A stretch of 64,000 nt of DNA from a virus (taxonomy: Duplodnaviria > Heunggongvirae > Uroviricota > Caudoviricetes). Positions 2,447-60,182 of this stretch are shown here, piece after piece. The notes beneath the pieces were generated by a model. The model was not told where the DNA came from and did no database searches. It saw only the letters and a program-made list of their open reading frames with translations. Numbering within the stretch: position 1 is the first letter of the stretch; each line of letters starts with the position of its first letter. The position numbers and the translations under genes are program-made. The DNA lies in the IMG/VR virus record IMGVR_UViG_2925908680_000001; one strand, given 5' to 3'.

Positions 2447-5400
2447 TTATGGGTGCTGATAAAACGAACAACATAATGACACTATCCTCTGGTGTCTCAC
2501 AGCCGTTGCTTGCTGATGTTCAATATTTCGAACTCTATAGTAGTTCGGCTCTTAACAGAAAACTTAAAAATATTGTTTTGCCGGGCTTTTACTGTGGATT
2601 TGAACCAGTTCCCGGCACAGGGTTGAGCGTCCGTATAACTTCTGAAAACTCAGAAGGTAAAGGGGCTGCTTCAGTAGATGTAAATAATGTTCAGATATCC
2701 GTTCAGCAAATAGAAGATGTGACTGTCTCGGTAAAGGCTGGGGCTACCAACATTATTGTGCTAGAAGCCAATTTTGAACATGGTGTAAAAACGACACAGG
2801 TAGAGAGCGCATCTTCTGTCAGTGCTGCAAGAATTTACGCGCGTACGGACAATACTATTGGGCAGAATCAAATTGAATTATGTCGAGTTATCGTGCCTAA
2901 CGGCGCAACGGCTGTGACGAAAGAAATGATTGTGCTTAAATACCGGGTTAACCGTGCTGTTGGTGTCGAATTCTCTAATGAAATAAGCAGTACAGAAGAA
3001 AGAAAAGCGGCTACACCTCTGGCTGTCAAAACTCTCCATGATTTGGTTGATACAAAAGCTCCGCTCGATAGTCCACATCTGTCAGGTACGCCGACTTCGC
3101 CGACACCTGAACCCGGTACAAACAACACACAGATCGCAAATGCGGCCTTTGTCTATGCTGCTATAAATGCGCTTATCAATGGTGCTCCGGGAACGATGGA
3201 CACGCTGAAAGAAATAGCGGCTGCGATCAATAACGACCCGAATTTCAGCACAACTATCAACAATGCCCTGGCTCTTAAAGCTCCTTTGGCAAGCCCGGCG
3301 TTCACAGGTACGCCGACAGCACCTACGGCCTCACAAGGCACAAATAGCACGCAGATTGCAAATACAGCCTTTGTTAAGGCAGCTATAACGGCACTTATCA
3401 ACGGTGCACCTGGCACATTGGATACGCTGAAAGAAATAGCGGCTGCGATCAATAATGACCCGAATTTCAGCACAACTATCAACAATGCCCTGGCTCTTAA
3501 AGCTCCTTTGGCAAGCCCGGCGTTCACAGGTACGCCGACAGCACCTACGGCCTCACAAGGCACAAATAGCACGCAGATTGCAAATACAGCCTTTGTTAAG
3601 GCAGCTATAACGGCACTTATCAACGGTGCACCTGGCACATTGGATACGCTGAAAGAAATAGCGGCTGCGATCAATAATGACCCGAATTTCAGCACAACTA
3701 TCAACAATGCCCTGGCTCTTAAAGCTCCTTTGGCAAGCCCGGCGTTCACAGGTACGCCGACAGCACCTACGGCCTCACAAGGCACAAATAGCACGCAGAT
3801 TGCAAATACAGCCTTTGTTAAGGCAGCTATAACGGCACTTATCAACGGTGCACCTGGCACATTGGATACGCTGAAAGAAATAGCGGCTGCGATCAATAAT
3901 GACCCGAATTTCAGCACAACTATCAACAATGCCTTGGCTCTCAAAGCGCCTTTGGCAAGCCCTGCATTAACGGGTGTCCCTACTGCGCCGACCGCCGCAC
4001 AGGGCACAAATAATACGCAGATAGCTACGACCGCTTATGTAAGAGCTGCCATATCCGCATTGGTTGGTTCATCACCAGAAGCTCTTGATACCCTGAATGA
4101 GCTTGCCGCAGCACTTGGCAATGACCCGAACTTTGCGACAACAATGACAAATGCGCTGGCAGGCAAACAGCCTCTGGATGCAACTTTAACCGCGTTTGCT
4201 GCCCTTGCGACTGGTGCAAACAAACTGCCTTATTTCACCGGTAAGGATACGGTAGCGCAGACTGATTTAACGTCAGTCGGTCGCGATATTCTGGCTAAAA
4301 CAAGCACACTGGCCGTTATCCAATACCTTGGTTTAAGAGAACTCGGAACAAGCGGTGAAAAGATCCCCCTGTTGAGCACGGCTAACACATGGAGTGCACG
4401 CCAGACTTTCAACGGCGGGATCACCGGGGCGCTGACAGGGAATGCCGACACCGCGACGAAATTGAAAACAGCCATAAACATTAATGGCGTCAGGTTCGAT
4501 GGTTCTACGAACATTTCGATACCAACAATTACGTCTAGAGGACGCGTTACTGCGCTTACCGGTACAACGCAAGGTGCTGCTACTGGATTGCAGATGTATG
4601 AGGCATACAACAATGGCTACCCTTCCCCCTATGGCAATGTGCTTCACCTTAAAGGTGCCACCGCTGCTGGCGAAGGTGAGTTATTCATTGGCTGGAGTGG
4701 CACGAGCGGTGCCCATGCGCCCGTACATATCCGTTCGCGGCGGGATACTGATTCTGCCAACTGGTCTGAATGGGCGCAGGTCTATACGTCAAAAGATTCA
4801 GTTCCCGGCGTCAATGCCAAAGGGGATCAGGATACCTCCGGCAATGCTGCTACGGCGACCAGATTGCAGACGGCGCGCACTATTAACGGTGTCTCGTTTG
4901 ATGGTTCTAAAAACATTGAGCTAACGGCGGAAGATTTAAATCTTGAGCAAACCGTAGAATTAGCCGCTGGATCATTGCAGAAAAACCAGAACGGCGCAGA
5001 TATTCCAAACAAAGATAAATTTACGCAAACAATAGGTGCTTGCCGCTCTTTTCATGGTGCTATTAGCACAGGTGCAGGAAACTGGACGACGGCACAATTG
5101 ATTGAATGGCTGGATTCTCAAGGGGCATTCAATCACCCATACTGGATGTGCAAATGTTCATGGTCATACGGCAATAATAAAATTATTACCGATACTGGCT
5201 GTGGAACTATTCATCTTGCAGGTTGCGTTATTGAGGTTATGGGTAATAAAGGTGCCATGACCATCCGTGTAACCACCCCGAGCACTTCCAGCGGTGGCGG
5301 AACTACTAATGCACAATTTACTTATATAAACCATGGCGCAGATTACGCACCAGGCTGGCGGCGTGACTACAGTACCAAAAATCAGCAGCCTGCATTTGCT

Positions 5401-17463: not shown

Positions 17464-17469
17464 GTTAAA

Positions 17470-17590: not shown

Positions 17591-17651
17591 GGTGTATAAA
17601 TCCACTGGCATAGATTTATACGGTAGATAGATTTTTTCACGGAGCTATCTG

Positions 17652-18614
17652 GTGAGTATTTTAAATTCAGTTTCAGTAACTTTCAACACTTCTGAGTATA
17701 AAAACAACACTGAATACCACAAAAAAATCAAAGGTCATCAGTTGAGTTTTTTTGCTCGTCATAGCGGTCTTATTTCCCCTTCACATAGCGCCATTATTGC
17801 CGAGTTCGCCAACCTGGCAGGGGCTACCGATGAATACATGATCCGTCGCTCATATGCTGATATGTCCGAGATTACAGGACGCAGTATTTCTACTGTGCGC
17901 CGGGCATTTGCTGAAGCGACGAAGTGCGGAATGCTTGTTAAGCAACATCAGGTAGCGAATAACAATGCCCAGGTGTGTAACGTATATCGGTTTACGACAC
18001 AATTTCTCCACTTCATTCATGTAGCAATGGAGATAGGGGGTAAGCAGGGCATCAAATTTGCCAACGCCACAAAACTGGTTAAGCAGTTGATTTCAAAGGT
18101 TCGTTATTTTTTTGAAACTGGGAACCCCCTGTTCAAATTGAACAAGTCCCCCCATGTTCAAAATGAACAGCCAATAGAAAATAAGAGTCACTCTATAGCC
18201 AAAAGAAGAGAAAGATCATGCGCGGTTCAGCCAAAGGCTTCACCAGCAGATAGTTCTCAAACGGATAACGTGGTACTGGATAAAAAACCAGTAATCAGGG
18301 AAGAACATACCAACCACTGCCTGGCGGCGGCAAAAGCGAGAGCTGCAAAGCGTCGTTCAGACGAGGGGCACGCAAAACGGCAGGCTCTGTATCGTACCGC
18401 TGAAAAGCTGGCAAAAAAATTTGCATGGATACGTAGTGCCGCTACCGCAGTGAATAAGCCTAAACAATCCAATGCCCTGGATTTCTCAATGGATTATTCT
18501 GGCTCCCAGGGGTGTGCAACCATTGGTGAAGCCTTTGACCTGATGAAACAGCGTGGCTATCGGTCTGAATTTGACCGGGAGGATTGGTCAATCCCTGCGG
18601 GATTTAGGGGATGA
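17652..18614 (+). CDS. HTH DNA-binding protein, possible replication initiator (RepL-like?)
   Basis: 320 aa; HTH-like ITGRSISTVRRAFAEATKCGMLV; internal palindromic iteron pair; basic C-terminal half. Confidence 0.3.
   Translation: MSILNSVSVTFNTSEYKNNTEYHKKIKGHQLSFFARHSGLISPSHSAIIAEFANLAGATDEYMIRRSYADMSEITGRSISTVRRAFAEATKCGMLVKQHQVANNNAQVCNVYRFTTQFLHFIHVAMEIGGKQGIKFANATKLVKQLISKVRYFFETGNPLFKLNKSPHVQNEQPIENKSHSIAKRRERSCAVQPKASPADSSQTDNVVLDKKPVIREEHTNHCLAAAKARAAKRRSDEGHAKRQALYRTAEKLAKKFAWIRSAATAVNKPKQSNALDFSMDYSGSQGCATIGEAFDLMKQRGYRSEFDREDWSIPAGFRG
18125..18169. repeat. two tandem palindromes CCCCC-TGTTCAAATTGAACA / CCCCCC-ATGTTCAAAATGAACA inside coding sequence
   Basis: Read directly; 15-bp palindromes 22 bp apart. 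Confidence 0.8.
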
Positions 18615-18668
18615 CCTGTGTGTCTACAAAGCATCCCAATGATCGGAAAATGCCCGCTCGATGATTTA

Positions 18669-18677
18669 TGTTAGAAA
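18669..18677 (+). promoter_or_regulatory. operator-like TGTTAGAAA with inverted partner TTTCTAA at 18690-18696
   Basis: Dispersed motif family; upstream of icd/ant module 1. Confidence 0.55.
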
Positions 18678-18879
18678 ATTAATTTGCTGTTTCTAAATCG
18701 GAATGTATGATCTGCATCATCGACAGAAGTCATCCATTGCTGAAATTTTTAGTTGATCTTCCATGTTTTCAGGCTTATATTCATGCCGTCGTAGCAAATT
18801 CTGCGACCAGGTTTGACAGCCTGAATGTTAGTGCGGACAACCGCAGATTTCCGATATTGCGGTATTTTTGTGTCCGTAA

Positions 18880-19020
18880 ACCGCGTTACGCCCGAATTAT
18901 GGTGGGGCGTGATGGGGAGGCTTCGGCCTGCTGGTTTCACTAACGCCAGTCTGTCAACCCTGTCACGTCCTGCCACCTGTTTGACAGCGGGTAGCAGGTT
19001 GTTAAACCTGTTAGTGAGGC
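18880..19020 (+). ncRNA. candidate C4-type antisense RNA / structured leader upstream of icd-like gene
   Basis: GC-rich hairpins in leader, position equivalent to P1 c4; not verified by covariance model. Confidence 0.3.
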
Positions 19021-19027
19021 CGTAACT

Positions 19028-19252
19028 ATGGTTAATGCCAATCCTTGCTCACGTCCAGAATTCATCTGGCGTTTCCACTCCCTGCAAAAACACTGCGATC
19101 ACTTCGCAATTGCCGCAACCGAAAAAGAAGCCCGTTCTCTGATCCCTGATCAGCATGGTGTTCTTACTGGTCGTTTCTCTACTTCCCCACAACCAAACAC
19201 TAATCCCTGGTATCGCAATATTACCAATCCCGGCATTGCGGAGGCACACTGA
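19028..19252 (+). CDS. Icd-like small protein (cell-division-inhibitor family candidate)
   Basis: 74 aa with EFIWRF motif; paralog at 58655..58870; directly upstream of antirepressor. Confidence 0.45.
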   Translation: MVNANPCSRPEFIWRFHSLQKHCDHFAIAATEKEARSLIPDQHGVLTGRFSTSPQPNTNPWYRNITNPGIAEAH

Positions 19253-19959
19253 TGGATATCTGCATTCTTGAAAAGCCATCAATGACCAGCATTGAGATCG
19301 CGGAGCTGGTGGGAAAACGTCATGACAATGTGAAGCGTACCATTGAAACATTAGCCGAATCCGGCGTTATTGTTCGTCCTCAAATTGAGGATGAACCAAA
19401 AATAGATGTAATGGGGCGTTCTCGATTAATTCAGGTGTTCCGATTTAGCGACGAGCAAGGCAAACGAGACAGCATCATTGTAGTCGCACAGCTTTGTCCT
19501 GAGTTTACTGCCCGGCTGGTGGACCGCTGGCGCGAACTGGAAGAACAAGTACGCCAGCCGTTGACCGAAATAGAGATGATCGCCGCAATGGCTGCAAATG
19601 CAGTTCAGCAGCAAAAGCGGCTTCATGCTGTTGAGTCAAAGGTTAGCCAGGTCGCTGAAACCGTCGAGCAAATCAAGAAGGGCAATATGCCAGATGGCTA
19701 CATTGGCTACCGCCAGCTGGCGGCGAAATGTGGCCTGACTGAAGCCAAATGTCGCAACCTGGTTAACGCTTACCGGATTCCCACCGATACACATGAGTTT
19801 TTAACTCCAGAGGGGGTATTGTCGCGTCGTTCCATCGTGGCCTTATCTCCCTTCATGAATGCTTTTAACCGGATGATGTCGGAGGCTGAACACCGAGGAA
19901 AACGCTGGTATCACCCCAAAATGGGGCAATTCCAGGTGATCGGTTGGGGAGGTGAGTGA
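19252..19959 (+). CDS. antirepressor (Ant/Rha-type N-terminal domain)
   Basis: 235 aa; MTSIEIAELVGKRHDNVKRTIE motif; ATGA coupling to icd-like gene. Confidence 0.6.
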   Translation: MDICILEKPSMTSIEIAELVGKRHDNVKRTIETLAESGVIVRPQIEDEPKIDVMGRSRLIQVFRFSDEQGKRDSIIVVAQLCPEFTARLVDRWRELEEQVRQPLTEIEMIAAMAANAVQQQKRLHAVESKVSQVAETVEQIKKGNMPDGYIGYRQLAAKCGLTEAKCRNLVNAYRIPTDTHEFLTPEGVLSRRSIVALSPFMNAFNRMMSEAEHRGKRWYHPKMGQFQVIGWGGE

Positions 19960-20156
19960 TGGACATCATGCAGGCGGTAAAAAAAATCAGGGAAGGACAG
20001 GCTGAAGTGTGCCGCCGTAAAGCATGGAGTGTTGGTGTATGGGCCTGGCCTGATAATTACTCTACTACCGGATGGTTTTGTATTAATGGACTCCAGATCC
20101 GGGAAGTTGATTTATCGACGGCTGATATAGTCGGTAATGATTGGATCGTGACTTGA
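19959..20156 (+). CDS. DUF2829 (Tad2-like) small protein
   Basis: 65 aa; W...W....DWIV pattern; homologous to C-terminus of second Ant (58870..59811); TGATG coupling. Confidence 0.5.
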   Translation: MDIMQAVKKIREGQAEVCRRKAWSVGVWAWPDNYSTTGWFCINGLQIREVDLSTADIVGNDWIVT

Positions 20157-20164
20157 AGCGTGAT

Positions 20165-20189
20165 GCCCCGGCCTGGCCGGGGCTTTTTT
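20165..20189 (+). terminator. rho-independent terminator gccccggc-ctg-gccggggc + TTTTTT
   Basis: 8-bp GC stem plus U-tract. Confidence 0.85.
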
Positions 20190-20674
20190 CATGCCTCATT
20201 AGTTGAGGTTGCTGCGTCTCCGACTGGTAACAGAGCGGTATTGCGTGGTTCGCCAGCAGGCCAGCGATAGCCAGACACTCTTGATGTTGGGAATGCGCGA
20301 ATATTAACCGCATCCCCCTGGTTCCCACCCAGGACAAGCAGATCGCCATTGGCGCGGCGTCCGACAACGAAGCCTACGTGCCCACCGCCTACACGGGTAA
20401 ATACAACGATACATCCGTATGCCGGTGTATCTAATTTCTCGCCCCAATCCAGATAGGATTTTGCCGACTCAAATCTTGTTGAGCGGATGCCTACACGTTC
20501 CAGCATTGCACCGACAAATGCTGCGCACCACGGCGTTTCATCGTCTTTAATTCCGCCGCGCTTGATGTCGCGCCAGAACTGAACGATTTCAGGGTTGTGT
20601 TTAGCGCCTTTTATTTCAGTCAGGCCAATGTGCTTACGGGCTTCAATTAGCCAGCGAGGTTCAATGTTTGCCAT
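20189..20674 (-). CDS. Cys/His peptidase-like protein (NlpC/P60-CHAP/TIGR02594-like)
   Basis: 161 aa; conserved WCAAFV ... GGHVGFVVG pattern. Confidence 0.5.
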   Translation of the reverse strand: MANIEPRWLIEARKHIGLTEIKGAKHNPEIVQFWRDIKRGGIKDDETPWCAAFVGAMLERVGIRSTRFESAKSYLDWGEKLDTPAYGCIVVFTRVGGGHVGFVVGRRANGDLLVLGGNQGDAVNIRAFPTSRVSGYRWPAGEPRNTALLPVGDAATSTNEA

Positions 20675-20825
20675 ATTTTTCTCCCGGTCATGGGTTAATA
20701 AGTAGGCAAACTATGGGGAGTATGTGATTTTGACGGTAGTATCGCCCCCCTGAAAATAACATTCTCCATACCCTCTCAACCGTACCGCATAGCGGAATTT
20801 TTTACGGTTTAGAGGGGGAAATCCT

Positions 20826-57264: not shown

Positions 57265-57843
57265 ATGCAGAAACAGAGCTATTGGGAGAAACAGAGACAA
57301 AAAGCCATGCAAAAATTGGCTGACCCAGCCTGGCGAGAGGAACAAAGGGCAAAGCGCCTTCAACAAGCTCAACGCCAGCAGCAGCGAGCGAGAGAAAAAG
57401 CCGCATCGCCTGAATATCGGCAAAAGAAAATTGAAAAAGCAAAGCAATATGAACAGCGGAGAAAAGATAAAGCTGTATCCGCTCCGTCCAAAAAAACACG
57501 CACGTCACGCGGCCTGAAAGGCAGATCACTCACAGCCGATGAACGCCGGATACAGACCGCTATCGGTGCTCTCCCCTGCATTGCCTGCCATATTCACGGG
57601 CAACATAGCCCAGTGGTATCCCTGCACCATATCTTCGGGAGAACGGCAGAGAACGCACATAGATATGTCCTCCCTTTGTGTAAATGGCACCACCAGTACG
57701 CAGCGCCAGCCGAGGTCCGAGAACAATATCCCTGGCTGGTCCCTGTTCATGCTGACGGAAAAATAGGCGGAAAAGCAGATTTCATGCGGCACAATGCCGA
57801 TGAAATGACGTTGTATCAGATGGCGATTGAATTGATAAATTAG
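57265..57843 (+). CDS. Ref-like HNH endonuclease (recombination enhancement function family)
   Basis: 192 aa; Lys/Arg/Gln-rich N-terminal 90 aa then CIACHIHGQH...HHIFG...LCKWHH HNH core. Confidence 0.6.
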   Translation: MQKQSYWEKQRQKAMQKLADPAWREEQRAKRLQQAQRQQQRAREKAASPEYRQKKIEKAKQYEQRRKDKAVSAPSKKTRTSRGLKGRSLTADERRIQTAIGALPCIACHIHGQHSPVVSLHHIFGRTAENAHRYVLPLCKWHHQYAAPAEVREQYPWLVPVHADGKIGGKADFMRHNADEMTLYQMAIELIN

Positions 57844-57845
57844 TT

Positions 57846-57854
57846 TTCTAACAT
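57846..57854 (-). promoter_or_regulatory. operator-like TGTTAGAAA (minus orientation)
   Basis: Dispersed motif family. Confidence 0.5.
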
Positions 57855-58173
57855 TTTAAGTTGAATTGTAAATTTCTCCGATGTACATTCACTACCGATT
57901 GGCACACCGGTCAACTTTTTGAGACAAACTGTTTAGTTTTTCGTATTATTGCCGCCGCTATACCTATGGCGGTGCAATATAGGTGGCTGAAAAGCCCCCG
58001 TTGACTCACGGTGTTCCAGCCTTTATTGCGCCGCCACCAGACCGTGGAACAGTCGATGGCGGCTCCGAAAGCAAGGAGTCACCACACTATGAACAGCTAC
58101 TGTCTTTTCCCATCACTCGTTGTCCGCCACTCACGCGATAATCTGCATTCTTTACTCGCGCTGGGGGTGTCAA

Positions 58174-58341
58174 AATGACCGTTCGCTACCTCAACTTTCA
58201 AATCCAGAACATCACTGGCGGTTGCTATGACTGGTTTGTCACTCTCGGAAAAGAAGTGATCACCGGGAAGCTGGATGAAGTGAAAGCTAAAGCAATGGCC
58301 TACGCCTGCAAGCAAGCCCGGAAGAAATCCGCCAAAGCATA
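58174..58341 (+). CDS. 55-aa small ORF
   Basis: SD-like GGGGGTG before ATG; ends before terminator; below size cutoff. Confidence 0.25.
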
Positions 58342-58446
58342 AAATACTGACTGTTGCGCCCTGGCATTATCGTGGGGTATATTTCTACGGCACCTTAGAA
58401 AAACGGGTGCCGGGATTGGAACCCCGGATAATGCAAAAGGCGACAC

Positions 58447-58470
58447 AGACGCCGAAAGCGTCTTTTTTTG
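58447..58470 (+). terminator. rho-independent terminator agacgc-cgaaa-gcgtct + TTTTTTT
   Basis: Classic. Confidence 0.85.
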
Positions 58471-58499
58471 TGTCATGCCATCGCACAGCCATACGTAGC

Positions 58500-58640
58500 G
58501 TTTAGCTCAGAGATCAATGGTAGTGCTGGCTGGGCTGCCGAAAGGCAGGCCGGTTCCCTTTTGCGCCGGTAGTTCCAACCCAGTCAGTGCTACCGCCATT
58601 GAGATTGGAACCTCACGCGGTAGCTCCTTAAATTAGCAAA
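58500..58640 (+). ncRNA. candidate C4-type antisense RNA / structured leader upstream of second icd-like gene
   Basis: Multiple GC hairpins in 140-nt leader; position as P1 c4. Confidence 0.3.
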
Positions 58641-58654
58641 AGGAGGCTGCCAAT

Positions 58655-58870
58655 ATGGCTACTATCCCTACCCCAACTCATTCTGAATTTATCTGGCGTT
58701 TCTATTCCTGCCAAAAACACCTGTATATCTGCGTCATGGCTGCTACCGAAGCAGAAGCTCGTTCATACCTTCCTGAAGAACCCTGCATTTTTGCCGCACG
58801 CTTCACTCTTGATGCGATGGAGATCCTAAATTACTGGAATCTGCCAATGAACTGCGTGGAGGTGCACTGA
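58655..58870 (+). CDS. Icd-like small protein, paralog of 19028..19252
   Basis: 71 aa; SEFIWRFYSCQKH motif. Confidence 0.45.
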   Translation: MATIPTPTHSEFIWRFYSCQKHLYICVMAATEAEARSYLPEEPCIFAARFTLDAMEILNYWNLPMNCVEVH

Positions 58871-59811
58871 TGAATCTGTCCATCTCTCAAAAAGCGACAA
58901 TGACCAGTATTGAGATCGCGGAACTGGTAGGTAAGCGTCATGATAATGTGAAGCGTACCATTGAAGTATTAACTAAAGGTGGTGTCATTCAATTTCCTCA
59001 AATTGAGGAAATTGAAAATAAACAATCAGTTGGCCCTCGTCGATTTTCCAAGGCTTACATATTTGAAGGCGAACAAGGAAAACGAGACAGCATCATTGTC
59101 GTCGCGCAGCTCTCTCCGGAATTCACCGCCCGGCTGGTGGACCGCTGGCGCGAACTGGAGAATGCCCGGGTACAGTTAAAATCAAAAGCCGAAATTCTGG
59201 CTGAAATGGCGCAAATGCATCTTGAGCATGAACGCCGGATCAACGCCGTAAATGCCCAGGTAGCCGAGGTATCAGCACAAGTATCGATGGTCGCTGAAAC
59301 ACTCGAGCAAATCAAGAAAGGCAATATTCCGGAAGGCTACATTGGCTACCGCCAGCTGGCGGCGAAATGTGGCCTGACTGAAGCCAAATGTCGCAACCTG
59401 GTTAACGCTTTCCGGATTCCCACCGATACGCATGAGTTTTTAACTCCAGATGGTTTGCTTGCGCGACGCTCCATTGTGGCCCTGGTCCCCTTCCGGAAAG
59501 CCTTTAAGCAGGTGATGTCGGAGGCAGAACCACGCAATAAACGCTGGTATCATCCAAAGATGGGGATGTTTCAGGCAATCCACCATCCTGTGCCTGAAAG
59601 CCCAAAGGATAATCTGTCACTACATACCGTCAGAGAGAAGATCAGGACTGGATACGCAACAGTGTGTCGTCGTTCTTCCTGGCCTGAAGGTATATGGGTG
59701 TGGCCCGAAGGTGGATCACGAAAGCACTGGCGCACCATCCGTGACGGGAAAATCCATGCTATTGATTTAGCTCCAGAGGATGTTATTGCTATGGACTGGA
59801 TTGTTAGTTAA
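58870..59811 (+). CDS. antirepressor (Ant/Rha-type) fused to C-terminal DUF2829 (Tad2-like) domain
   Basis: 313 aa; N-terminus MTSIEIAELVGKRHDNVKRTIE; C-terminal 70 aa homologous to separate ORF 19959..20156. Confidence 0.6.
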   Translation: MNLSISQKATMTSIEIAELVGKRHDNVKRTIEVLTKGGVIQFPQIEEIENKQSVGPRRFSKAYIFEGEQGKRDSIIVVAQLSPEFTARLVDRWRELENARVQLKSKAEILAEMAQMHLEHERRINAVNAQVAEVSAQVSMVAETLEQIKKGNIPEGYIGYRQLAAKCGLTEAKCRNLVNAFRIPTDTHEFLTPDGLLARRSIVALVPFRKAFKQVMSEAEPRNKRWYHPKMGMFQAIHHPVPESPKDNLSLHTVREKIRTGYATVCRRSSWPEGIWVWPEGGSRKHWRTIRDGKIHAIDLAPEDVIAMDWIVS

Positions 59812-59818
59812 ATGCTGC

Positions 59819-59839
59819 ATCCCCGGCGACGCCGGGGAT
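59819..59839 (+). terminator. hairpin atccccggc-gac-gccggggat
   Basis: 9-bp GC stem after ant stop; weak U-tract. Confidence 0.55.
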
Positions 59840-59870
59840 TTAACTGCCAAATAATCGGATTATCCGCACG

Positions 59871-60182
59871 ATGAAAAAAATAGATTTCACTTATTCTGCC
59901 GCCACACTTGAGCGGCGCTTCACCCTCATTAGAGAGTTGGAACTGTCAAAAGTCTGGTATCAAATCCTACTGGATGAAGAGTTTTCACTGATGGTTATAG
60001 CAGAAAAATTGGCTATGCCTAATGATCGGCACAAGGTCATAGCCAGCCTCGATCTGGTGACAAACAGATACTGGGAAACAGAGGAACTACATGAGGCGGG
60101 AGTAATTCGTGACCTGATGGAGAATTCCGTTCCCCGCCGCTATCGTGCAGGGAACGGCATCTCCGTGGTTAAAGGTGTTTAA
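59871..60182 (+). CDS. hypothetical protein
   Basis: 103 aa ORF. Confidence 0.35.
   Translation: MKKIDFTYSAATLERRFTLIRELELSKVWYQILLDEEFSLMVIAEKLAMPNDRHKVIASLDLVTNRYWETEELHEAGVIRDLMENSVPRRYRAGNGISVVKGV

What the first reader, a model, noticed from the sequence alone, without database searches (positions are those of the whole stretch)
18669..20156. Duplicated immunity-type module (operator, structured leader, icd-like, ant): copy 1
P1-like phages normally carry one immI region. Here two paralogous modules exist (second at 58500..59811) with diverged Icd-like proteins and Ant proteins sharing the same N-terminal domain. In copy 1 the DUF2829 domain is a separate, translationally coupled ORF; in copy 2 it is fused to Ant. 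Either a recent duplication with domain shuffling or two independently acquired antirepressor systems.
Basis: partly seen in the sequence, partly recalled or inferred. Interest (0 to 1): 0.6.

Follow-up and report, generated by a model that had tools for sequence, protein, structure and literature searches.

The report
Two orthogonal C4 antisense immunity modules
This D6-like phage-plasmid carries two separate copies of the P1-type "immI" switch, in which a small antisense RNA blocks translation of an icd-like gene and a coupled antirepressor-like gene; the two copies are real and should not cross-talk, but they are a standard, already annotated feature of this phage family.

Summary
The window is a D6-like E. 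coli phage-plasmid (92–96% identical to phage D6, 99.9% to plasmid NZ_CP066033.1). It carries two complete C4-type modules. Each has a promoter, upstream decoy boxes a1/b1, a C4 RNA above the Rfam cutoff, and boxes a2/b2 over the icd ribosome-binding site. Each then encodes an Icd-like ORF, a translationally coupled Rha/Roi-type "Ant", and a short DUF2829-like segment, which is split in module 1 and fused in module 2.

A model-free search of 164 related leaders found matched box triplets in every one. They occur in many allele combinations, which is strong covariation support for the antisense mechanism. The two modules are predicted not to cross-react, and module 1 carries the P1 specificity allele, not D6's.

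This is not a recent duplication. The leaders are about 45% identical and belong to different lineages: P1 immI type and IsrK/Gifsy-1 type.

"Ant" is not homologous to P1 Ant1/2, so its antirepressor role is inferred. The DUF2829/Tad2 assignment is weak. The "operator" is real but is a D6-type motif, not a P1 one.

Two modules are the rule in D6-like elements and common in P1-like ones, and the literature already notes them. Interest is low to moderate.

The parts
18668..18682 (-). D6-type operator-like motif (TTAATTTTCTAACAT on the minus strand). It abuts a weak upstream promoter candidate (TTGCTG 18684-18689, 16 nt spacer, TATGAT 18706-18711).
   Evidence: 9 copies against 0.2 expected by chance. 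All are intergenic and lie in front of repL, module 1, the c1 homologue and other genes. Binding by the C1 homologue is inferred. The promoter candidate is my reading of the sequence.
18753..18781 (+). Sigma-70 promoter of module 1 (TTGATC, 17 nt spacer, TATATT), positional equivalent of P1 P51b (P1c4).
   Evidence: Promoter scan. Aligns with the annotated P1 promoter.
18775..18834 (+). Upstream target element a1/b1 of module 1: a1 TTGACAG 18813-18819, b1 GTTAGTG 18827-18833.
   Evidence: Rfam RF03163, 54.4 bits, cutoff 46.7. Exact complementarity to the C4 loops. Same spacing as the P1 a1/b1 annotation.
18895..18980 (+). C4 antisense RNA 1. The mature 77 nt is about 18901-18977 by alignment to P1. 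b' is UCACUAAC(G) at 18937-18945 in the hairpin-2 loop; a' is CUGUCAA at 18951-18957 in the junction. Both are identical to the P1 allele.
   Evidence: Rfam RF01695, 68.8 bits. Fold z-score -4.66. Alignment to P1, P7 and D6.
18981..19019 (+). Downstream targets of module 1: a2 TTGACAG 18981-18987; b2 GTTAGTGA 19010-19017, overlapping the Shine-Dalgarno GAGG at 19016-19019.
   Evidence: Cognate duplex energy -29.2 kcal/mol.
19028..19252 (+). icd-like ORF 1 (74 aa). Its stop overlaps the ant start (TGATG).
   Evidence: NCBIfam NF033153, 40.3 bits, cutoff 25. PHROG 1426. 61% identical to P1 Icd.
19252..19959 (+). Rha/Roi-family 'Ant' 1 (235 aa).
   Evidence: Pfam PF09669, 37.2 bits, cutoff 29.9. 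PHROG 63. 65% identical to Ant2. No match to P1 Ant1 or KilA.
19959..20156 (+). Small coupled ORF (65 aa from ATG 19959, or 66 aa from GTG 19956). It is a DUF2829-like segment. Its start overlaps the ant stop (TGATG).
   Evidence: 43% identical to Ant2 residues 256-313. PHROG 7385. Pfam Tad2-like only 15.1 bits. Weak transitive links to the Tad2 family.
20165..20190 (+). Intrinsic terminator closing module 1. It is shared with the convergent CHAP-domain hydrolase gene at 20189-20674 on the minus strand.
   Evidence: Terminator scan. Pfam CHAP.
57840..57854 (+). Distal D6-type operator-like motif (exact TTAGTTTTCTAACAT), about 500 nt upstream of module 2 and ahead of small ORFs.
   Evidence: Its link to module 2 is inferred.
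58354..58383 (+). Putative promoter of module 2 (TTGCGC, 18 nt spacer, TATATT). The transcript would start near 58390, which is position 1 of the isrK model.
   Evidence: Read from the sequence. Position relative to the Rfam isrK hit. It scores 8 of 12 and was not called by the promoter scan.
58390..58470 (+). IsrK-type a1/b1 element with its own intrinsic terminator: a1 TTGGAAC 58416-58422 in a hairpin loop, b1 GCAAAAGG 58433-58440, terminator 58447-58463 followed by a U-run.
   Evidence: Rfam RF01394, 62.5 bits, cutoff 50. Overlapping sub-threshold c4-a1b1 match, 22.4 bits. Terminator scan. Complementarity.
58513..58600 (+). C4 antisense RNA 2: b' CCUUUUGC 58557-58564 in the hairpin-2 loop, a' GUUCCAA 58572-58578 in the junction.
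   Evidence: Rfam RF01695, 76.7 bits. Fold z-score -5.46.
58605..58646 (+). Downstream targets of module 2: a2 TTGGAAC 58605-58611; b2 GCAAAAGG 58636-58643, overlapping the Shine-Dalgarno AAGGAGG at 58640-58646.
   Evidence: Cognate duplex energy -28.2 kcal/mol.
58655..58870 (+). icd-like ORF 2 (71 aa). Its stop overlaps the ant start (TGATG).
   Evidence: NCBIfam NF033153, 49.4 bits. PHROG 1426. 63% identical to P1 Icd.
58870..59811 (+). Rha/Roi-family 'Ant' 2 (313 aa) with a fused DUF2829-like C-terminus (about residues 249-313, nt 59614-59808). It is followed by a GC-rich hairpin at 59820-59838.
   Evidence: Pfam PF09669, 37.3 bits. PHROG 63 over the full length and PHROG 7385 on residues 254-312..
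19691..19812 (+). Recombination or gene-conversion tract shared with 59330-59451. It is about 98% identical, while its flanks are 45-80% identical.
   Evidence: No significant RNA structure.

Best explanation
The window carries two independent, non-cross-reacting C4-type antisense-RNA switches (P1 immI-type modules).

How each module is thought to work:
1. A promoter transcribes a leader that contains, in order, decoy boxes a1/b1, the C4 RNA, and boxes a2/b2. The b2 box overlaps the Shine-Dalgarno sequence of an icd-like ORF.
2. C4 is cut out of its own transcript.
3. C4 pairs through its hairpin-2 loop (b') and junction (a') with a2/b2. This blocks icd translation.
4. The downstream genes start on the icd stop codon (TGATG). 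Blocking icd therefore also silences the Rha/Roi-type 'Ant' and the short DUF2829-like segment.
5. When C4 is absent (just after infection) or titrated by the a1/b1 RNA, the operon is translated.

Differences between the modules:
- Module 1 is a P1 immI RNA cassette carrying the exact P1 specificity allele.
- Module 2 is the IsrK/Gifsy-1 variant. Its a1/b1 element ends in its own terminator, so it can be released as a free anti-antisense sRNA.

Shown here: the RNA motifs, the complementarity, family-wide covariation, orthogonality by sequence and energy, the coupling geometry, and conservation of both modules.

Inferred from P1 and Gifsy-1 biology: C4 processing, Rho polarity, control of the upstream promoters by the D6-type C1 homologue, and the idea that the Rha-type proteins inactivate that repressor.
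For: - Rfam finds C4 twice above cutoff, plus c4-a1b1 and isrK.
- Both C4 RNAs fold canonically, with z-scores of -4.7 and -5.5, and b' and a' are unpaired.
- Exact 7-9 nt complementarity of b'/a' to boxes both upstream and downstream, with b2 on the Shine-Dalgarno sequence.
- P1's annotated a1, b1, a2 and b2 align with module 1 at identical spacing.
- A model-free triple-box search of 164 icd leaders from IMG/VR, P1, P7 and D6 found b' with matching targets on both sides in 164 of 164, and a' in 163. There are at least 9 b' and 7 a' alleles, always compensated at all three sites.
- Duplex energies: cognate -28 to -33 kcal/mol; module 1 against module 2 -10.8 and -15.9. That is weaker than P1 against P7 (-21.8 and -25.5), a pair that is heteroimmune in experiments.
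- Both modules are intact on 10 of 10 D6-like contigs, and their alleles reassort independently.
- In Gifsy-1, Rfam places isrK, an overlapping c4-a1b1 match (48.1 bits) and C4 (69 bits) in front of anrP. Experiments there show IsrK activating translation of the coupled downstream gene about 140-fold, and a processed RNA of about 80 nt (PMC4825925).
- The operator-like motif occurs 9 times against 0.2 expected, in front of repL, c1 and both modules.
Against: - No expression or processing data exist for this element.
- The 'Ant' proteins have no detectable homology to P1 Ant1/2 or KilA or to Gifsy-1 AnrP. Their N-terminal half resembles the DNA-binding protein Roi. Antirepressor activity therefore rests on position and database labels only.
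- The C1 homologue is only 21% identical to P1 C1 (NCBIfam 25 bits against a cutoff of 500).
- The operator copy near module 2 lies about 500 nt upstream of the isrK-type promoter, so its control of module 2 is uncertain.
- The module 2 promoter is a weak consensus match that the promoter scan did not call.
Confidence: 0.75

Rival explanations
1. The RNA switches are as described, but the Rha/Roi-type proteins are not antirepressors. They would be DNA-binding early regulators or host-directed factors (like Roi or Rha) that the phage needs only briefly after infection or induction. The modules would then be 'early-gene timers', not immunity (antirepressor) loci.
For: - Pfam Phage_pRha above cutoff, plus a winged-helix HTH signal.
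- The N-terminal half is 52-58% identical to the Roi DNA-binding proteins of H-19B and Stx phages.
- No homology to P1 Ant1/2.
- C4 cassettes sit in front of proteins with several different architectures: Rha, ORF6N, ORF6N+ANT and ANT.
Against: - The best PHROG match is family 63, 'anti-repressor Ant', though that is only an annotation label.
- In P1 and Gifsy-1, the gene in the same position behind C4 and its coupled leader ORF (icd in P1, orf45 in Gifsy-1) is an antirepressor, or it induces the prophage (PMC4825925).
- Rha, ORF6N, KilA-N and Bro-N domains are known to be shuffled among antirepressor-like phage proteins (general knowledge, not tested here).
Confidence: 0.25
2. The two modules arose by a recent duplication within this plasmid lineage, followed by domain shuffling.
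For: - The ant genes are 65% identical at protein level over their whole length.
- They share a tract of about 120 nt that is 98% identical.
- The gene order is the same in both modules.
Against: - The leaders are about 45% identical, which is unalignable, and they match different Rfam upstream elements (c4-a1b1 and isrK).
- Each RNA cassette has much closer relatives elsewhere: module 1 is 93% identical to P1 immI, and module 2 is 89-91% identical to RCS47 and JL22.
- Both modules are present in D6 and in all 10 full D6-like contigs.
- Variants in the near-identical tract form a patchwork across paralogues and genomes, as expected for gene conversion.
Confidence: 0.05
3. One of the two modules is a decaying, non-functional remnant, and only one is the working immI.
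For: - Module 1 has the DUF2829-like part as a separate ORF, which could be read as a disrupted fusion.
- A few relatives have shortened ant ORFs in module 2 (212 + 98 aa in 4 loci).
Against: - Both modules keep intact promoters, C4 folds, all four target boxes, icd, ant and the stop/start overlaps.
- Specificity alleles change in both modules, always with compensation at three sites. This requires selection on pairing.
- The split form (235 + 65 aa) is the conserved state in about 21 of 23 module 1 loci, and its junction is a TGATG overlap preceded by GGAGG, not a frameshift scar.
Confidence: 0.07

Closest known systems
Phage P1 / P7 immI region (Op51-P51a/b, a1/b1, c4, a2/b2, icd, ant1/ant2)
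   Same: - Same Rfam RNA families, box layout and spacing.
- Module 1's RNA cassette is 93% identical to P1 and has identical a' and b' loops.
- An Icd-like ORF whose stop is coupled to the next gene.
- Specificity is set by a few loop nucleotides, as in P1 versus P7.
   Different: - The downstream gene is Rha/Roi-type, not the KilAC/ANT-domain Ant1/2.
- There is an extra DUF2829-like ORF or domain.
- There is no P1 C1 operator. A different 15-nt motif takes its place.
- repL lies upstream of the module instead of downstream.
Phage D6 (NC_050154) orf17-19 and orf82-83, and the D6-like plasmid pYU39_89
   Same: The same two modules in the same genomic contexts, at 92-96% DNA identity. [quoted passage not shown]
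   Different: The specificity alleles differ in both modules.
- Module 1 b': window CACTAAC (the P1 allele), D6 CGTAAGT.
- Module 2 a': window GTTCCAA, D6 GTCTCAA.
Each difference is compensated in both targets.
Gifsy-1 isrK-orf45(STnc1160)-anrP locus (Salmonella)
   Same: - Module 2 has an isrK-family element with its own terminator, then a C4 RNA, then a coupled antirepressor-like gene.
- In Gifsy-1, Rfam finds isrK overlapping c4-a1b1, followed by C4.
- Experiments show activation in trans by the short RNA and translational coupling (PMC4825925).
   Different: - Gifsy-1 has no separate icd-like gene. 'orf45' overlaps the C4 region.
- AnrP is an ORF6N-domain protein unrelated to the Ant proteins here.
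- The Gifsy-1 locus lies next to the late-gene antiterminator Q.
Second ant module of P1-like plasmids (RCS47, JL22, pTZ20_1P; between pacB and c1)
   Same: The leader is 89-91% identical to module 2 (isrK-like element, C4 and the 5' half of icd). This shows that carrying several C4 modules is common (PMC6906374).
   Different: - It controls an ORF6N+ANT protein 55% identical to P1 Ant1.
- It is preceded by a P1-type C1 operator remnant.
- It has its own alleles: b' CCTTGGAC and a' AGGCCAA.
Satellite phage P4 CI RNA with seqA/seqB/seqC
   Same: CI belongs to the same RNA family as C4, and P4 uses the same logic of upstream and downstream complementary boxes. The IsrK authors themselves note the analogy.
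   Different: In P4 the outcome is premature transcription termination of replication genes, with no icd or ant. None of this was tested here.
Tad2 / AcrIIA7 (Pfam PF11195, DUF2829) anti-defence proteins
   Same: - The small ORF and the Ant2 C-terminus share the N-terminal 'RRxxW..G.W' and C-terminal 'D(I/L)xAxDW(I/V)' motifs.
- 7 of the 8 weak PDB sequence hits are Tad2 or AcrIIA7.
- One distant relative (P0009) is a true PF11195 member.
   Different: - The score is below the Pfam cutoff (15.1 against 25).
- The domain is about 25 residues shorter than Tad2.
- The structure model is poor and its fold search is empty.
- No evidence of nucleotide binding.

Membership tests
P1-type immI module (c4-icd-ant) | C4 antisense RNA (Rfam RF01695) with an exposed hairpin loop (b') and junction (a') | tested here: met
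   68.8 and 76.7 bits against a cutoff of 45. Fold z-scores of -4.66 and -5.46, with the loops unpaired.
P1-type immI module (c4-icd-ant) | Downstream targets a2/b2 complementary to a'/b', with b2 covering the icd ribosome-binding site | tested here: met
   Module 1: 18981-18987 and 19010-19017, Shine-Dalgarno at 19016-19019. Module 2: 58605-58611 and 58636-58643, Shine-Dalgarno at 58640-58646. Covariation in 164 of 164 leaders.
P1-type immI module (c4-icd-ant) | Upstream a1/b1 copies of the targets in the same transcript | tested here: met
   Module 1: RF03163, 54.4 bits, above cutoff. Module 2: exact complementary boxes inside the isrK hit, while RF03163 scores only 22.4 bits.
P1-type immI module (c4-icd-ant) | Icd-like leader ORF translationally coupled to the next gene | tested here: met
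   NF033153 at 40.3 and 49.4 bits, cutoff 25. TGATG stop/start overlaps at 19250-19254 and 58868-58872. Coupling itself is inferred from this geometry.
P1-type immI module (c4-icd-ant) | Antirepressor homologous to P1 Ant1/Ant2 (KilAC/ANT domain, PF03374) | tested here: not met
   tblastn of P1 Ant1 and KilA finds nothing in the window. Pfam gives Phage_pRha and no ANT domain, whereas P1 Ant1 gives ANT.
P1-type immI module (c4-icd-ant) | P1 C1 operator (ATTGCTCTAATAAATTT) overlapping the upstream promoter | tested here: not met
   0 matches at up to 3 mismatches in 64 kb. A different repeated motif sits at the equivalent place.
P1-type immI module (c4-icd-ant) | C4 excised from the precursor (RNase P) and Rho-dependent polarity on ant | not testable with these tools
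   Needs RNA and genetic experiments. The mature ends are proposed only by alignment to P1.
IsrK-type leader (Gifsy-1) | isrK RNA (RF01394) ending in an intrinsic terminator, upstream of a C4-like RNA | tested here: met
   Met for module 2 only: 62.5 bits against a cutoff of 50, with a terminator at 58447-58463. Module 1 has no isrK hit and no terminator called between a1/b1 and C4.
IsrK-type leader (Gifsy-1) | Downstream effector homologous to AnrP (ORF6N) | tested here: not met
   AnrP (STM2616) is ORF6N, 72 bits. No similarity to Ant1.
Rha family (Pfam PF09669) | N-terminal Phage_pRha domain above the gathering score | tested here: met
   37.2 and 37.3 bits against a cutoff of 29.9, residues 11-98.
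Tad2-like / DUF2829 (Pfam PF11195) | Domain match above the gathering score, or a Tad2 fold | tested here: inconclusive
   - 15.1 bits, E 0.034, against a cutoff of 25 for the small ORF; no hit for the Ant2 C-terminus.
- Transitive links through P0005 (23.9 bits) and P0009 (37.4 bits).
- PDB profile hits to Tad2 and AcrIIA7 at E 0.16-1.4.
- AF2 model pLDDT 70; Foldseek found nothing.
Tad2-like / DUF2829 (Pfam PF11195) | Binding and sequestration of a defence signalling nucleotide | not testable with these tools
   A biochemical assay is needed.

The most novel reading that the evidence does not exclude
The two C4 cassettes may be orthogonal, independently reassorting specificity loci. Together they would give each D6-like plasmid a two-part 'immunity barcode'. 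This window combines the P1 allele in module 1 with a module 2 allele that differs from D6's.

The operons they gate may also be self-silencing early cassettes that deliver an anti-defence function. On this reading, the DUF2829-like segment (split or fused to Ant) acts like Tad2 or AcrIIA7. It would be made only in the brief C4-free period after DNA entry or on induction.

A corollary is that IsrK-type sRNAs are generally anti-antisense sponges for C4-family RNAs.
Probability: 0.12. Interest if true: 0.6.

Novelty: already known. Interest (0 to 1): 0.3.

Why it matters
This is mainly a well-supported clarification, not a discovery.

- **Two modules are the family norm.** D6-like phage-plasmids, and many P1-like ones, routinely carry two or three C4-type switches of different specificity classes.
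- **The RNA cassette is portable.** The boxes, C4 and the 5' half of icd recombine as a unit in front of unrelated antirepressor-like genes (Rha, ORF6N, ANT).
- **IsrK/STnc1160 belongs to the same system.** The Salmonella locus is one of these cassettes.
- **Use for annotation.** The RNA genes, which are missing from most records, can now be placed. "Anti-repressor Ant" should be treated as a positional label here.
- **Use for biology.** The allele tables predict which phage-plasmids are homo- or hetero-immune at the immI level. For example, this element's C4-1 should repress the icd/ant operon of phage P1.

Tried and rejected
- **D6 genome paper.** Gilcrease & Casjens 2018 (PMC5800970; DOI 10.1016/j.virol.2017.12.019) is not held. 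What it says about the two regions could not be checked. I relied on the GenBank annotation and on PMC6799933.
- **P1 C1 operator consensus.** It has no hit in the window, so I dropped the idea that the 'operator' is P1-type. De novo motif search then found the D6-type motif.
- **Exact 7-mer triple-box search.** It missed 25 RCS47-type leaders because their boxes include G·U pairs. Allowing G·U pairs fixed this.
- **Homologues of the small ORF.** The word-indexed search returned only 3 near-identical proteins. The exhaustive profile search found only 8 representatives.
- **Structure of the small ORF.** The AF2 model has pLDDT 70.5 from a 3-sequence alignment. Foldseek against PDB returned nothing below E = 0.9, which is uninformative.
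- **Ant2 against PDB sequences.** Nothing found.
- **The 120-nt tract as an RNA or DNA structural element.** Rejected: z-scores are about -1 on both strands, and the tract varies across the family.
- **Recent duplication and pseudogene explanations.** Both rejected; see the rival explanations.
Full report
**What the window is.**
- The region 17600-20700 is 96.4% identical to Escherichia phage D6, and 57800-60094 is 92.5% identical.
- Module 2 is 99.9% identical to E. coli plasmid NZ_CP066033.1. About 90 PLSDB plasmids carry module 2 at full length, almost all with a second matching place.
- The window is therefore a D6-like phage-plasmid.
- D6's GenBank record annotates both icd/'anti-repressor' pairs: orf19/18/17 and orf83/82.
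- The D6 genome paper itself is not held.

**Checking the observation.**
- Rfam finds two C4 antisense RNAs above the gathering score: 18895-18980 at 68.8 bits and 58513-58600 at 76.7 bits.
- It also finds the c4-a1b1 target motif at 18775-18827 (54.4 bits) and an isrK RNA at 58390-58468 (62.5 bits).
- ORFs:

| | icd-like | Ant | DUF2829-like part |
|---|---|---|---|
| Module 1 | 19028-19252 | 19252-19959 | separate ORF, 19959-20156 |
| Module 2 | 58655-58870 | 58870-59811 (313 aa) | fused, about residues 249-313 |

- Icd1 and Icd2 are 45% identical to each other. Each is about 61-63% identical to P1 Icd, and both pass the NCBIfam Icd-like cutoff.
- Ant1 and Ant2 are 65% identical over the whole 235 residues.
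- The small ORF matches Ant2 residues 256-313 at 43% identity, E 9e-18.
- All three gene junctions are TGATG stop/start overlaps.
Copy 2 actually begins near 58354, not 58500.

**The antisense mechanism.**
- Alignment with the fully annotated P1 immI region transfers every landmark to module 1 at identical spacing: P51b, a1, b1, c4, a2, b2 and icd.
- In both modules the hairpin-2 loop (b') and the 3' junction (a') of C4 are exactly complementary to one box pair upstream and one downstream. The downstream b box overlaps the icd Shine-Dalgarno sequence.
- Both C4 RNAs fold into the canonical shape with those elements unpaired; z-scores are -4.7 and -5.5.
- I collected 160 icd-linked loci from IMG/VR. 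In each leader I looked, with no model, for any 7-mer whose reverse complement occurs both upstream and downstream.
  - With G·U pairs allowed, 164 of 164 analysable leaders return b' and 163 return a'.
  - Almost nothing else is returned.
- Alleles found:

| Class | b' alleles | a' alleles |
|---|---|---|
| P1 / module 1 | CACTAAC, CACAATC, CGTAAGT, CATTCGT, CACAAGT | CTGTCAA, CTGCTAA |
| IsrK / module 2 | CCTTTTGC, CCTTTGAC, CCTTGGAC, CTTGAGTGA | GTTCCAA, GTCTCAA, AGGCCAA, AGACCAA, ACGCCAA |

- Every change is compensated in both targets. This three-way covariation is the strongest evidence that the pairing is functional.

**Specificity.**
- The window's module 1 carries exactly the P1 alleles. 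D6 has b' CGTAAGT there.
- The window's module 2 has a' GTTCCAA, where D6 has GTCTCAA.
- Duplex energies are -28 to -33 kcal/mol for cognate pairs. Between the window's two modules they are only -10.8 and -15.9.
- That is weaker than P1 against P7 (-21.8 and -25.5), and P1 and P7 are heteroimmune in experiments.
- The two switches should therefore be orthogonal.
- This plasmid's C4-1 should act on the immI of phage P1.

**Not a recent duplication.**
- Sliding identity between the modules is about 45% across the leaders, 60-70% in icd, 70-86% in the ant 5' part, and 45-50% in the middle.
- Module 1's RNA cassette (18768-19139) is 93% identical to P1.
- Module 2's cassette (58389-58791) is 88-95% identical to a second module in the P1-like phages RCS47 and JL22, and about 68% identical to Stx phages that carry annotated isrK plus C4.
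- In both cases the similarity breaks off inside icd. The RNA cassette plus the 5' half of icd therefore moves as a unit.
- That unit is joined to different effector genes:
  - Rha-type here and in Stx phage F039.
  - ANT/KilAC in P1.
  - ORF6N+ANT in RCS47.
  - ORF6N in Gifsy-1.
- One block of about 120 nt (19691-19812 and 59330-59451) is about 98% identical between the two ant genes, and also in D6.
  - It has no significant structure.
  - Across the family it varies, with variants shared in a patchwork between paralogues and genomes.
  - This points to gene conversion.

**Module 2 is the IsrK type.**
- The isrK hit contains a1 in a hairpin loop, then b1, and ends in an intrinsic terminator at 58447-58463. 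It overlaps a sub-threshold c4-a1b1 match.
- In Gifsy-1, Rfam finds isrK overlapping c4-a1b1 (48.1 bits, above its cutoff). A C4 RNA (69 bits) follows, where the literature places 'orf45/STnc1160', and anrP comes next.
- Published experiments show three things there (PMC4825925):
  - read-through of the IsrK terminator;
  - a processed RNA of about 80 nt;
  - about 140-fold activation of the coupled downstream gene when IsrK is supplied in trans.
- The authors themselves note the analogy with P4 seqA/CI.
- The a1/b1 element of module 2 can therefore plausibly be released as a free decoy for C4-2.
- No terminator was called between a1/b1 and C4 in module 1.

**Operator.**
- The P1 C1 operator consensus is absent from the whole window. 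The only C1 homologue (38403-39440, minus strand) is 21% identical to P1 C1.
- A different asymmetric motif, TTAGTTTTCTAACAT, occurs 9 times against 0.2 expected by chance.
- It is always intergenic.
- This parallels the P1 C1 regulon. Binding by the C1 homologue is inferred.

**The proteins.**
- 'Ant' has a Pfam Phage_pRha N-terminal domain above cutoff, and its N-terminal half is about 54% identical to Roi.
- It is unrelated to P1 Ant1/2, P1 KilA or Gifsy-1 AnrP. Its antirepressor role rests on position and on the PHROG 63 label.
- The DUF2829 call is weak:
  - PF11195 scores 15.1 bits against a cutoff of 25.
  - The family has only 8 representatives among 1.8 billion proteins.
  - One distant member is a true Tad2-like protein and another is borderline.
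  - 7 of 8 weak PDB profile hits are Tad2 or AcrIIA7.
  - The structure model and its fold search are uninformative.

**Distribution.**
- All 10 D6-like contigs long enough to hold both modules have both, and the alleles reassort freely.
- Eight P1-like contigs have two modules, and one has three.
- Split 235 + 65 aa is the rule for module 1. Fused 308-313 aa is the rule for module 2. A few exceptions and one recombinant exist.
- PMC6906374 already reports extra ant and icd copies in P1-like plasmids.

**Verdict.**
- This is a real, correctly delineated pair of C4-type modules that are very likely functional.
- It is a standard and already noted feature of D6-like phage-plasmids, not a peculiarity of this window.
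- I could not find the following stated in the papers available to me: the predicted orthogonality, the allele tables, the cassette-level mosaicism, and the equation of Gifsy-1 orf45/STnc1160 with C4. They are refinements of known biology.

Noticed in passing
window 17465, 18668, 29613, 30862, 35022, 39455, 39541, 53612, 57840 (15-nt sites): The asymmetric motif TTAGTTTTCTAACAT occurs 9 times against 0.2 expected by chance. It is always intergenic and close to gene starts (repL, module 1, the c1 homologue twice, and others). It is probably the operator of the D6-type C1 repressor. It shares a TCTAA core with the P1 operator.
   Followed up: partly
window 38403-39440 (-): The only C1-repressor homologue is very distant from P1 C1: 21% identity, and NCBIfam phage_rep_C1 scores 25 bits against a cutoff of 500. 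This fits the different operator.
   Followed up: partly
window 19691-19812 and 59330-59451: A tract of about 120 nt inside both ant genes is about 98% identical, while its flanks are 45-80% identical. It is also shared by both D6 copies. It has no RNA structure. Across the family its variants form a patchwork between paralogues, which suggests gene conversion.
   Followed up: yes
L168 (Gifsy-1 NC_010392) 34131-34329 (-): Rfam places a C4 RNA (69 bits) where the literature describes 'orf45/STnc1160'. It also places a c4-a1b1 match above cutoff that overlaps isrK. The IsrK system is therefore a C4-type module whose effector AnrP is an ORF6N protein.
   Followed up: partly
L006 (RCS47) 2501-4143; L119-L167 loci; IMG/VR contig 2703718869_000013 (L068, L086, L124): Many P1-like phage-plasmids carry a second full module between pacB and c1. 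It consists of a P1-type operator remnant, an isrK-like element, C4, icd, and an ORF6N+ANT paralogue of Ant1. One 97-kb contig carries three icd-linked modules, two of which differ only in b'.
   Followed up: partly
window 20189-20674 (-): A CHAP-domain peptidoglycan hydrolase gene converges on module 1 and shares the bidirectional terminator at 20165-20183.
   Followed up: no
window 32097-33583: A cluster of five tRNA genes: Arg-tct, Tyr-gta, Thr-tgt, Ser-tga and Met-cat. One operator-like site (30862) lies upstream of it.
   Followed up: no
window 3118-4022: A tandem array of 4.1 copies of a 222-bp unit (74 codons) with 94% matches. It is probably a repeated protein domain inside a large structural gene.
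   Followed up: no
window 17652-18614: The repL-like lytic replication gene lies directly upstream of module 1, with its own operator-like site at 17465. In P1, repL lies downstream of immI instead.
   Followed up: no
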